Source of the DNA: Escherichia coli
Lineage (GTDB): Bacteria; Pseudomonadota; Gammaproteobacteria; Enterobacterales; Enterobacteriaceae
Direction: 5' to 3' (one strand)
Assembly: GCF_030013205.1 (NCBI RefSeq)
Contig: NZ_CP122648.1
DNA length: 64,000 nucleotides
Shown piece after piece: positions 24,001-27,000 of the stretch (positions are counted from its first letter, which is position 1; every line of letters begins with the position of its first letter). Made by a program: the position numbers.

Positions 24001-27000
24001 TTATCGTTGGTAAAAAAGAGATGATCGCCCGCCTGCAAAGCCATCCACTGAAGCGTGCATTACGCGCGGATAAAATGACCCTCGCGGCGCTGGAAGCCAC
24101 GCTGCGTCTTTATTTACACCCTGAGGCGCTGAGTGAAAAATTACCGACCCTGCGCCTGCTTACCCGCAGCGCAGAGGTCATTCAAATCCAGGCACAACGT
24201 TTACAGGCTCCCCTTGCCGCACATTACGGCGCGGAGTTTGCGGTACAGGTTATGCCATGTCTTTCGCAGATTGGCAGTGGTTCGCTGCCGGTTGATCGCC
24301 TGCCGAGCGCGGCATTAACGTTTACACCCCATGATGGACGCGGTAGCCACCTTGAGTCATTAGCCGCCCGCTGGCGTGAATTGCCAGTGCCGGTGATTGG
24401 TCGTATTTATGACGGACGATTGTGGCTGGATTTACGCTGCCTTGAAGATGAGCAACGGTTTTTGGAGGTGTTGTTGAAATGATTATTGCGACTGCCGGAC
24501 ACGTTGACCACGGCAAAACAACCTTATTGCAGGCGATTACTGGCGTAAATGCCGACCGTCTGCCGGAAGAAAAAAAGCGCGGCATGACCATCGATCTCGG
24601 TTATGCCTACTGGCCGCAGCCGGATGGCCGCGTGCCTGGTTTTATCGACGTACCCGGTCATGAAAAGTTTCTTTCCAACATGCTGGCTGGCGTTGGTGGT
24701 ATCGATCACGCGCTGTTGGTGGTGGCGTGCGATGACGGCGTGATGGCACAGACCCGTGAGCATCTGGCGATTTTGCAGCTGACCGGTAACCCGATGCTGA
24801 CAGTGGCGCTGACCAAAGCCGATCGCGTGGACGAAGCGCGTGTTAATGAGGTTGAACGCCAGGTAAAGGAGGTGCTGCGGGAATACGGTTTTGCTGAGGC
24901 AAAACTGTTTATCACCGCAGCAACCGAAGGTCGGGGAATTGATGCCCTGCGCGAGCATCTGCTTCAGTTACCAGAACGCGAACACGCCAGCCAACATAGT
25001 TTCCGCCTCGCGATCGACCGTGCATTTACCGTAAAAGGTGCCGGGCTGGTCGTCACCGGTACGGCGTTAAGCGGGGAAGTGAAGGTAGGCGATTCACTCT
25101 GGCTGACTGGTGTAAATAAACCGATGCGCGTGCGTGCGCTGCATGCACAAAACCAGCCAACAGAAACCGCCCATGCCGGGCAGCGTATCGCGCTTAACAT
25201 CGCGGGTGATGCGGAAAAAGAGCAGATTAACCGTGGCGACTGGCTGCTTGCCGATGTGCCGCCAGAGCCGTTCACGCGGGTGATTGTCGAGCTTCAAACC
25301 CATACGCCGCTGACCCAGTGGCAGCCGCTGCATATTCACCACGCCGCCAGCCACGTTACGGGACGCGTTTCGCTGCTGGAAGATAGCCTTGCCGAGCTGG
25401 TGTTCGACACGCCGCTGTGGCTGGCGGATAACGATCGCTTAGTGTTGCGCGATATCTCGGCCCGCAACACGCTGGCGGGGGCGCGTGTGGTAATGCTTAA
25501 CCCGCCGCGTCGCGGTAAGCGTAAGCCGGAATATCTGCAATGGCTGGCGTCTCTTGCACGAGCGCAGAGCGATGCCGATGCGTTATCTGTTCATCTGGAA
25601 CGCGGCGCGGTTAACCTTGCCGATTTCGCCTGGGCACGGCAGCTCAACGGCGAAGGGATGCGCGAACTATTGCAACAGCCTGGCTATATTCAGGCTGGTT
25701 ATAGCTTGTTGAATGCGCCGGTTGCCGCCCGCTGGCAGCGGAAAATTCTCGACACATTAGCGACTTATCATGAGCAACATCGCGATGAACCTGGTCCTGG
25801 GCGCGAACGTCTGCGACGTATGGCGTTGCCAATGGAAGATGAAGCGCTGGTACTGTTGCTGATTGAAAAGATGCGCGAAAGCGGCGACATCCTCAGTCAT
25901 CACGGCTGGCTGCATCTGCCGGATCACAAAGCAGGCTTCAGCGAAGAGCAGCAGGCCATCTGGCAAAAAGCAGAGCCGCTGTTTGGTGACGAACCGTGGT
26001 GGGTGCGAGACCTGGCAAAAGAGACGGGAACCGACGAGCAGGCAATGCGTCTGACGCTACGTCAGGCGGCGCAGCAGGGGATAATTACCGCGATCGTTAA
26101 AGATCGTTATTACCGTAACGATCGGATTGTCGAGTTTGCCAATATGATCCGCGATCTCGATCAGGAATGTGGTTCAACCTGCGCGGCGGATTTCCGCGAT
26201 CGCTTAGGCGTAGGCCGAAAACTGGCAATTCAAATTCTGGAATATTTTGACCGCATTGGTTTTACGCGTCGTCGGGGAAATGATCATTTACTGCGCGACG
26301 CAGGTGATGCTGCCAACTTACTGATTTAGTGTATGATGGTGTTTTTGAGGTGCTCCAGTGGCTTCTGTTTCTATCAGCTGTCCCTCCTGTTCAGCTACTG
26401 ACGGGGTGGTGCGTAACGGCAAAAGCACCGCCGGACATCAGCGCTATCTCTGCTCTCACTGCCGTAAAACATGGCAACTACAGTTCACTTACGCCGCCTC
26501 TCAGCCCGGTACGCACCAGAAAATCATTGATATGGCCATGAATGGCGTCGGATGTCGCGCCAGTGCACGCATTATTGGCGTTGGCCTCAACACGATTTTC
26601 CGCCACTTAAAAAACTCAGGCCGCAGTCGGTAACCTCGCGCATACAACCGGGCAGTGATGTGATTGTCTGCGCTGAAATGGACGAACAGTGGGGCTACGT
26701 CGGTGCTAAATCACGTCAGCGCTGGCTGTTTTACGCGTATGACAGGATGCGGAGGACGGTTGTGGCGCACGTCTTCGGTGAACGCACTCTGGCCACACTG
26801 GAGCGTCTTCTGAGCCTGCTGTCGGCCTTTGAGGTCGTGGTATGGATGACGGATGGCTGGCCGCTGTATGAATCACGCCTGAAGGGAAAGCTGCACGTTA
26901 TCAGCAAGCGTTATACTCAGCGCATTGAGCGGCATAACCTGAATCTGAGACAACATCTGGCAAGGCTGGGACGGAAGTCACTGTCGTTCTCAAAATCGGT

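What the first reader, a model, noticed from the sequence alone, without database searches (positions are those of the whole stretch)
26303..26329. SelB C-terminal tail is encoded by the IS1 inverted repeat
The final 8 residues (GDAANLLI) and the stop codon of selB are read from IS1 DNA, so the native tail of the elongation factor has been replaced. The C-terminal region of SelB is the winged-helix part that binds the SECIS mRNA hairpin, so selenoprotein synthesis (formate dehydrogenases) could be affected even though the ORF stays open.
Basis: partly seen in the sequence, partly recalled or inferred. Interest (0 to 1): 0.45.

Follow-up and report, generated by a model that had tools for sequence, protein, structure and literature searches.

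The report
IS1 deletion scar rewrites SelB tail
A common jumping gene (IS1) sits on the last six codons of the selenocysteine elongation factor gene selB in a pig-associated E. coli lineage and marks a 16-kb deletion; the swapped tail lies beyond the folded RNA-binding domain, so this is an ordinary insertion-sequence scar that most likely leaves selenoprotein synthesis working.

Summary
A 768-bp IS1 occupies 26303-27070. selB (24479-26329) matches K-12 SelB in register up to A608. It then reads eight codons (GDAANLLI) and a TAG from the IS1 left inverted repeat, in place of the native LLFPEK.

The other IS1 end abuts codon 401 of yiaN. Compared with an IS1-free swine relative, 15,936 bp (yiaY to yiaO, plus the yiaN 3' end) are missing.

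Fourteen complete swine or wild-boar E. coli genomes share the identical selB::IS1 junction. They have four different right-hand junctions, with 5.5, 10.2, 15.9 and 16.1 kb lost. This is the pattern of IS1-promoted adjacent deletions.

The six lost SelB residues lie past all of these: the NCBIfam SelB model (fully matched by residues 1-607), the crystallised E. coli SECIS-binding fragment (487-607) and the last predicted beta-strand. Homologue tails vary in length. The one caveat is that L610-F611 is conserved in Enterobacterales.

fdoG keeps its single in-frame TGA. SelB 1-608 is identical to the IS1-free relative.

Verdict: a real but ordinary IS1 scar, probably functionally near-neutral for SelB. 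Low interest.

The parts
23091..24482 (+). selA (selenocysteine synthase), intact, first gene of the selAB operon
   Evidence: 463-aa ORF; annotated selA in the near-identical ETEC4079 record
24479..26302 (+). native part of selB, codons 1-608
   Evidence: Gap-free alignment to PDB 5lzb/K-12 SelB residues 1-608. TIGR00475 selB scores 914.9 bits against a cut-off of 242, model 1-581 matched by residues 1-607. Identical to SelB 1-608 of the IS1-free relative CFSAN018748.
26303..26329 (+). IS1-encoded replacement tail of SelB (GDAANLLI) plus TAG stop; this is the reported finding
26303..27070 (+). complete IS1-family insertion sequence, 768 bp
   Evidence: Terminal inverted repeats; IS1 transposase family hits; identical copy at the same selB junction in ETEC4079, K_EC180 and ETEC4068
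26303..26325 (.). left inverted repeat (IRL); stops in all three inward reading frames after 8, 6 and 0 codons
27048..27070 (.). right inverted repeat (IRR)
26358..26633 (+). insA ORF (zinc-finger N-terminal part of the IS1 transposase); the A6C frameshift motif at 26609-26615 links it to insB'
   Evidence: PGAP annotates a joined 'programmed frameshift' CDS 26358..27055
26552..27055 (+). insB' reading frame (catalytic part of the InsAB' transposase)
27071..28273 (-). native part of yiaN (TRAP transporter large permease), codons 1-401
   Evidence: Comparison with K-12 YiaN; NF011634 YiaN 883 bits
26990..27070 (-). IS1 IRR-encoded replacement tail of YiaN (26 residues plus stop), replacing the native last 24 residues
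26302..27071 (.). the two novel joints of a 15,936-bp deletion relative to the IS1-free arrangement (yiaY, fic, aldB, type I restriction gene, hicAB, GH127, MFS, araC-type regulator, sgbE, sgbU, sgbH, lyxK, yiaO, 3' end of yiaN)
   Evidence: the K-12 gene order gives the same conclusion

Best explanation
An IS1 copy became joined to selB immediately after codon 608 in an ancestor of a swine-associated E. coli lineage. The IS1 left inverted repeat carries stop codons in all three inward frames. In the frame set by this junction, selB runs on for eight IS1-encoded codons (GDAANLLI) and ends at a TAG inside the repeat. From this fixed left junction, the right end of the same IS1 was later joined to progressively more distant chromosomal sites. 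The most likely route is intramolecular IS1 transposition, the classical IS1-promoted adjacent deletion. In the window's genome this removed 15.9 kb and left IS1 fused to codon 401 of yiaN. The SelB change is a passive by-product. It removes six residues that follow the last structured element of the SECIS-binding winged-helix domain, and it most likely leaves SelB functional or only mildly impaired. The real losses are elsewhere: the yiaY-aldB segment, most of the yiaK-S (2,3-diketo-L-gulonate / L-xylulose) operon, the last transmembrane segment of YiaN, and the native hairpin-plus-U-run downstream of selB. Shown: the structure, the junctions, the deletion sizes and the position of the lost residues relative to known structures. 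Inferred: the order of events, the transposition mechanism and the functional neutrality.
For: IS1 anatomy. Tail comparison with K-12 and PDB. The IS1-free relative CFSAN018748 has a contiguous selB-yiaY-...-yiaO-yiaN arrangement and identical SelB 1-608. The left junction is the same (after ancestral position 10472), while right junctions fall at ancestral positions 16001, 20660, 26409 and 26596 in ETEC4068, K_EC180, ETEC4079/window and W13-16. The flanks are not duplicated (CGCGACGCA versus CAGGACGTA). Fourteen of 5,426 complete genomes share the exact junction, all from pig or wild boar in Belgium, Korea and France. The exact 616-aa protein occurs on 48 contigs of a 15-billion-protein collection. 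The lost residues are outside TIGR00475, outside the PDB 2pjp SECIS-complex chain 487-607, and after the last strand of the AF2 model, where the tail is coil with mean pLDDT 78 against 93-97 for the domain. Tail length after F611 is unconstrained in homologues. fdoG in ETEC4079 is full length with a single TGA at codon 196. Independent IS1 hits at the same gene end occur in other lineages: EP91B within the stop codon, a Logan contig after codon 610, TOK-001, and 14 more within about 400 bp.
Against: L610 and F611 are conserved in nearly all Enterobacterales SelB tails examined, and Proteus SelB ends exactly at ...LF. This argues that these two residues are not entirely free, and both are lost here. 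The cryo-EM chain 5lzb_z is listed at 614 residues and aligns to the model across all 128 columns, tail included, so the tail appears to be modelled in the ribosome complex and its contacts could not be inspected. Intact fdoG and selA are weak evidence, because the lineage is young. No genome with a simple insertion plus target duplication was found, so the order of events is inferred. Intramolecular transposition cannot be told apart from recombination between two IS1 copies using the end product.
Confidence: 0.8

Rival explanations
1. The tail swap makes SelB a hypomorph. Loss of the conserved L610-F611 (or the added GDAANLLI) would weaken folding of the fourth winged helix, SECIS binding or ribosome docking. 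The lineage would then make less formate dehydrogenase H/N/O.
For: The x-x-L-F motif at 608-611 is conserved in Enterobacterales, and some SelBs end exactly at LF. The tail has intermediate rather than low AF2 confidence. The C-terminal domain is the SECIS binder and lies next to h16 on the ribosome (papers read).
Against: The E. coli fragment 487-607, which lacks these residues, was crystallised in complex with SECIS RNA (PDB 2pjp). The family model ends at residue 607. More distant SelBs lack the LF motif. The allele has persisted in a lineage sampled in three countries with no further decay of selB, selA or fdoG. Another lineage carries an IS1-type fusion after L610.
Confidence: 0.13
2. The deletions arose by homologous recombination between the selB-proximal IS1 and second, directly repeated IS1 copies inserted further right, not by intramolecular transposition.
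For: These genomes carry roughly 13-23 IS1 matches each. The end product, a single IS1 without target duplication, is identical under both routes. IS1 insertions in yiaN, yiaL and yiaO are seen in other E. coli (hits H16-H25).
Against: This route needs four separate extra insertions of the same IS1 variant in the same orientation within 16 kb, each followed by recombination. No sampled genome of the lineage shows the two-copy intermediate. A fixed end with nested variable ends is the textbook signature of IS1-promoted adjacent deletion (established knowledge: Reif and Saedler 1975, from memory, not read here).
Confidence: 0.25
3. The junctions are an assembly artefact, caused by collapse across a repeated IS1.
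For: IS1 is multicopy, and short-read assemblies often break or mis-join at it (for example the Logan contig that ends in the IS1 repeat).
Against: The left junction is identical in 14 complete genomes from different laboratories. The right junction is reproduced in ETEC4079, which differs from the window at 9 positions elsewhere in the first 50 kb compared, so it may be a separate though near-identical sequence. Three other right junctions are each supported by their own assemblies.
Confidence: 0.01

Closest known systems
IS1 (IS1 family) insertion sequence of enterobacteria
   Same: 768 bp. 23-bp imperfect terminal inverted repeats GGTGATGCTGCCAACTTACTGAT / GGTAATGACTCCAACTTACTGAT. insA and insB' frames linked by an A6C -1 frameshift site. 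Multicopy in the genome.
   Different: A sequence variant that PGAP labels only 'IS1 family' rather than IS1A/B. In one search the IS1-only matches of other genomes (IS1A/IS1B) are about 95% identical to it. Not flanked by a target-site duplication here.
IS1-promoted adjacent deletions (classical gal-region deletions of E. coli K-12)
   Same: One IS end stays at its original joint while the other end is joined to variable sites on one side, removing the DNA in between. This gives a nested series with a common end point: 5.5, 10.2, 15.9 and 16.1 kb.
   Different: Observed here as natural polymorphism within a swine E. coli lineage rather than as selected laboratory mutants. The mechanism is inferred, not demonstrated.
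E. coli K-12 SelB (P14081; PDB 5lzb-5lzd, 2pjp)
   Same: Residues 1-608 are collinear with five substitutions against K-12 (D123N, M154I, N232H, N303S, H472L). All EF-Tu-like and winged-helix domains are present.
   Different: The C-terminus is ...RDA-GDAANLLI (616 aa) instead of ...RDA-LLFPEK (614 aa). The native 3' hairpin plus U-run is deleted.
Other IS1 insertions at the selB 3' end
   Same: EP91B and 2017.15.02CC have IS1B starting in the stop codon, so TAA becomes TAG. TOK-001 has IS1B about 65 bp downstream with a deletion to yiaN. A Logan contig has an IS1-type end after codon 610, giving ...ALLGNGANLLI. Fourteen further genomes have IS1 within about 400 bp.
   Different: These are independent events with other IS1 variants and junction positions. 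Only the swine lineage has the junction after codon 608.

Membership tests
IS1 family insertion sequence | Length about 768 bp, bounded by ~23-bp imperfect terminal inverted repeats | tested here: met
   Arms 26303-26325 / 27048-27070, 83% complementary, element 768 bp
IS1 family insertion sequence | Two consecutive ORFs (insA, insB') that encode an IS1-family transposase through a -1 frameshift at an A6C motif | tested here: met
   The two ORFs hit NF033558 positions 1-81 and 76-199 of 199. AAAAAAC lies at 26609 in the overlap. PGAP annotates a 'programmed frameshift' CDS.
IS1 family insertion sequence | 8-9 bp direct target-site duplication flanking a simple insertion | tested here: not met
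   The flanks are CGCGACGCA and CAGGACGTA. They lie 15.9 kb apart in the IS1-free relative. Absence is expected after an adjacent deletion or IS1 x IS1 recombination. It is a footprint of the insertion event, not a property of the element.
IS1-promoted adjacent deletion | One IS end keeps a constant joint while the other end is joined to different sites on the same side in related genomes | tested here: met
   Identical left joint; four right joints at ancestral positions 16001, 20660, 26409 and 26596
IS1-promoted adjacent deletion | The missing DNA is contiguous and adjacent to the IS in the undeleted arrangement | tested here: met
   CFSAN018748 carries the uninterrupted selB...yiaN segment. 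The K-12 gene order agrees.
IS1-promoted adjacent deletion | Produced by intramolecular transposition (transposase-dependent, recA-independent) | not testable with these tools
   This needs genetics. Sequence cannot separate it from recombination between two IS1 copies.
SelB (selenocysteine-specific elongation factor, TIGR00475) | Full-length match to the equivalog model above its curated cut-off | tested here: met
   914.9 bits against a cut-off of 242.25; model 1-581/581 covered by residues 1-607
SelB (selenocysteine-specific elongation factor, TIGR00475) | Complete C-terminal SECIS-binding winged-helix pair (WH3/WH4) as in the solved E. coli complex | tested here: met
   Residues 487-607 are identical to the PDB 2pjp chain. 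The AF2 model of the native fragment superposes on 2pjp at 0.7 A over 121 residues. The junction lies after residue 608.
SelB (selenocysteine-specific elongation factor, TIGR00475) | Supports SECIS-dependent UGA decoding in vivo | not testable with these tools
   Only indirect evidence: fdoG retains its single in-frame TGA196, and selA is intact.

The most novel reading that the evidence does not exclude
The swine ETEC / oedema-disease lineage that carries selB::IS1 is a natural SelB hypomorph. Loss of the Enterobacterales-conserved L610-F611 anchor would weaken SECIS or ribosome engagement. That would lower formate dehydrogenase (and so formate-hydrogenlyase) activity in the pig gut, and would reveal a functional role for a SelB tail absent from the crystallised SECIS-binding fragment.
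Probability: 0.12. Interest if true: 0.35.

Novelty: new member of a known kind. Interest (0 to 1): 0.12.

Why it matters
It matters little for biology at large. It is a clean natural example of two textbook IS1 behaviours: ends that close any interrupted reading frame within a few codons, and nested adjacent deletions from a fixed end.

There are two practical points. First, annotation pipelines call both chimeric ORFs (616-aa SelB, 427-aa YiaN) as normal full-length genes, hiding a 16-kb deletion and the loss of YiaN's last transmembrane segment. Second, the selB 3' end and its AT-rich downstream spacer are a recurrent IS1 landing site in E. coli.

If the minority reading were true, the allele would be a ready-made natural probe of the function of the conserved L610-F611 tail of SelB.

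Tried and rejected
1. I looked for experimental data on C-terminally modified SelB. The hexahistidine-tagged SelB paper (Thanbichler and Bock 2003) and the 2pjp paper (Soler et al. 2007) are not held. The Rodnina-lab papers cite the tagged construct but do not say where the tag sits. My recollection that a C-terminal tag is tolerated is therefore not used as evidence.

2. Literature searches for selB together with IS1 found nothing relevant. One search failed on a term that was too short.

3. The consensus terminator scan found nothing downstream of native selB, because the hairpin loop is 9 nt. Direct folding showed the hairpin plus U-run instead.

4. The protein search with the C-terminal 143 residues returned mostly fragments. 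It was still usable for tails, but some short ends (P0023, P0062, P0112) may be contig breaks, so I did not count them as natural truncations.

5. I considered a second AlphaFold run on the IS1-tailed variant and dropped it, because AF2 is insensitive to changes of this kind.

6. I considered checking fdhF and fdnG as well as fdoG and stopped after fdoG. Gene intactness in a young lineage is weak evidence either way.

7. An assembly artefact was rejected.

Full report
**1. What is in the sequence**

The ORF list gives selB as 24479..26329 on the + strand, 616 aa, immediately after selA at 23091..24482. Position 26303 is the first base of codon 609. The 27 bases 26303-26329 read GGT GAT GCT GCC AAC TTA CTG ATT TAG, that is GDAANLLI plus a stop.

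The repeat finder pairs 26303-26325 with 27048-27070: 23 nt, 83% complementary, 722 nt apart. This delimits a 768-bp element. [quoted passage not shown] An AAAAAAC slippery motif lies at 26609 in their overlap.

**2. How much of SelB is lost**

The window protein aligns without gaps to the 614-aa E. coli SelB of PDB 5lzb through residue 608. K-12 SelB ends ...HLLRDA-LLFPEK and the window protein ends ...HLLRDA-GDAANLLI. Six native residues are replaced by eight foreign ones.

Translating the IS1 ends inward explains the short run-on. The left end has stops after 8, 6 and 0 codons in its three frames. The right end has stops after 26, 6 and 0 codons. Any gene interrupted by IS1 acquires such a tail, so nothing about this one is specific to selB.

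**3.

The DNA to the right of IS1 (27071 onward, minus strand) is yiaN, native up to codon 401. Its last 24 residues are replaced by 26 residues read from the IS1 right end.

In K-12, selB and yiaN are separated by yiaY, aldB, yiaWVUT, sgbEUH, lyxK and yiaO. A closer reference is CFSAN018748, a swine isolate from Denmark. It has the same RHS/Imm57 neighbourhood, no IS1 here, and a 614-aa SelB identical to the window protein over residues 1-608. Its gene order is selB-yiaY-fic-aldB-type I restriction gene-hicAB-GH127-MFS-araC-type regulator-sgbE-sgbU-sgbH-lyxK-yiaO-yiaN.

Against that arrangement the window lacks 15,936 bp. The 9 bp on either side of IS1 (CGCGACGCA and CAGGACGTA) are not a target duplication.

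**4. Population context**

The window's first 50 kb differ at only 9 positions from E. coli ETEC4079 (pig, Belgium). All nine lie in a YadA-like adhesin gene.

A 240-bp probe across the selB/IS1 joint finds the identical joint in 14 of 5,426 complete E. coli genomes. All are from pigs or wild boar, from Belgium, South Korea and France, and include O139:H1 strains. The exact 616-aa protein is on 48 contigs of the 15-billion-protein collection.

The left joint is invariant but the right joint is not:

| Genome | Right joint lies in | Ancestral position | DNA lost |
|---|---|---|---|
| ETEC4068 | the type I restriction gene | 16001 | 5,528 bp |
| K_EC180 | upstream of the araC-type regulator | 20660 | 10,187 bp |
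| ETEC4079 / window | yiaN codon 401 | 26409 | 15,936 bp |
| W13-16 | deeper in yiaN | 26596 | 16,123 bp |

By match pattern the 14 genomes split 2 / 6 / 1 / 5 across these four types, but I verified only one genome of each type.

A constant IS end with nested variable joints on one side is the classical signature of IS1-promoted adjacent deletion. Recombination between pairs of IS1 copies would give the same product and cannot be excluded.

**5. Is the site special?**

IS1 has hit this gene end repeatedly and independently.

- EP91B and 2017.15.02CC carry IS1B starting in the selB stop codon. Its first G turns TAA into TAG. In EP91B the deletion reaches yiaL.
- TOK-001 has IS1B about 65 bp downstream of an intact selB, with a deletion to yiaN.
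- Fourteen other genomes have IS1 within about 400 bp downstream.
- A Logan contig from another enterobacterium ends in an IS1-type repeat after selB codon 610, giving ...ALL-GNGANLLI.

The native spacer after selB is very AT-rich. That fits IS1's known preference for AT-rich targets, which I state from general knowledge and did not test.

**6. Does the tail matter?**

Evidence that it does not:

- (a) The curated SelB equivalog model TIGR00475 is matched over its whole length (581 of 581 positions) by residues 1-607.
- (b) The E. coli SelB chain deposited in complex with SECIS RNA (PDB 2pjp) consists of residues 487-607. An AlphaFold2 model of the native 487-614 fragment superposes on it at 0.7 A over all 121 residues.
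- (c) In that model the last secondary-structure element, a beta-strand of the WH4 wing, ends at residue 605. Residues 607-614 are coil with mean pLDDT 78, against 93-97 for the preceding blocks.
- (d) In homologues R606 is invariant and D607 is conserved in most, while 608-609 vary. After F611 the tail ranges from nothing to more than ten unrelated residues.
- (e) The carriers show no decay. SelB 1-608 is unchanged relative to the IS1-free relative, with one A362G variant in ETEC4068. selA is intact. fdoG in ETEC4079 is full length with a single in-frame TGA at codon 196.

Evidence for caution:

- L610 and F611 are conserved throughout the Enterobacterales tails, and Proteus SelB ends exactly at ...LF.
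- The cryo-EM chain 5lzb_z is listed at 614 residues and aligns to the model across all 128 columns, tail included. The tail therefore appears to be modelled in the ribosome complex, and its contacts could not be inspected here.

I put the chance of a meaningful functional defect at about 0.1-0.15.

**7. Other consequences (inferred)**

The hairpin followed by a U-run about 60 nt after the native selB stop is deleted (L011 10550-10586; -16.4 kcal/mol; z = -5.3). selAB transcripts presumably now run into IS1. The selB stop lies 28 nt upstream of the insA start, inside the repeat that also carries a promoter-like match at 26310-26337.

The yiaK-S operon is destroyed. It was already decaying in relatives: lyxK and yiaO are pseudogenes in CFSAN018748, and lyxK is frameshifted in K_EC180.

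**8. Comparison with the known, and verdict**

Everything here belongs to known categories: an IS1 element, an IS-end-encoded C-terminal replacement, and IS1-associated nested deletions. No paper mentioning selB::IS1 was found, and RefSeq names the chimeric protein simply as SelB.

It is a new instance of a known kind.

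Noticed in passing
window 26990-28273 (-): The yiaN ORF is also a chimera. Its last 24 residues, a hydrophobic and presumably transmembrane segment, are replaced by 26 residues read from the IS1 right end. The foreign tail happens to mimic the native hydrophobic pattern (LLVVFVFIPD versus [12 protein letters not shown]). The YiaN model still aligns to residue 420, and PGAP names it an intact yiaN.
   Followed up: partly
window 32085-33433 (+): A second mobile element, an IS3-family IS1397 copy, sits between ysaA and avtA (annotation of the near-identical ETEC4079 record). It is absent at that position in K-12 and CFSAN018748, but present in W13-16.
   Followed up: no
window 5932-6265, inside the 3019-8274 (-) YadA-like adhesin gene: All 9 differences between the window and ETEC4079 over the first 50 kb cluster in a 334-bp stretch of this large trimeric-autotransporter-like gene. 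This suggests repeat-mediated variation or gene conversion, or an assembly difference in repeats.
   Followed up: no
L007 3138-3150 (E. coli EP91B) and 2017.15.02CC: IS1B is inserted inside the selB stop codon. The first G of the IS1 repeat converts TAA to TAG, so the protein is unchanged. In EP91B the deletion reaches yiaL.
   Followed up: partly
L013 1860-1893 (Logan SRR16525705 contig): Another enterobacterial selB carries an IS1-type end (GGTAATGGTGCCAACTTACTGATTTAG) after codon 610, giving the tail GNGANLLI. The contig ends in the repeat, and its selB is split into several ORFs, so it is either a low-quality assembly or a pseudogene.
   Followed up: partly
L011 17186-19150, 23835-25331, 25335-26321 (CFSAN018748); L002 10347-11751 (K_EC180): In relatives that still hold the segment, GH127, lyxK and yiaO carry internal stops or frameshifts. 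The yiaK-S region may already have been decaying before the IS1 deletions removed it. Sequencing errors were not excluded.
   Followed up: no
window 16668-22156 (-): An RHS core protein gene with downstream Imm57-family immunity and small ORFs lies next to yibF-selAB, at the position of rhsA in K-12. ETEC4068 has a different-length RHS protein here, which shifted the alignment register.
   Followed up: no
window 8318-9001 (-): A hypothetical protein gene is annotated as a pseudogene (internal stop) just downstream of the YadA-like gene in the ETEC4079 record.
   Followed up: no
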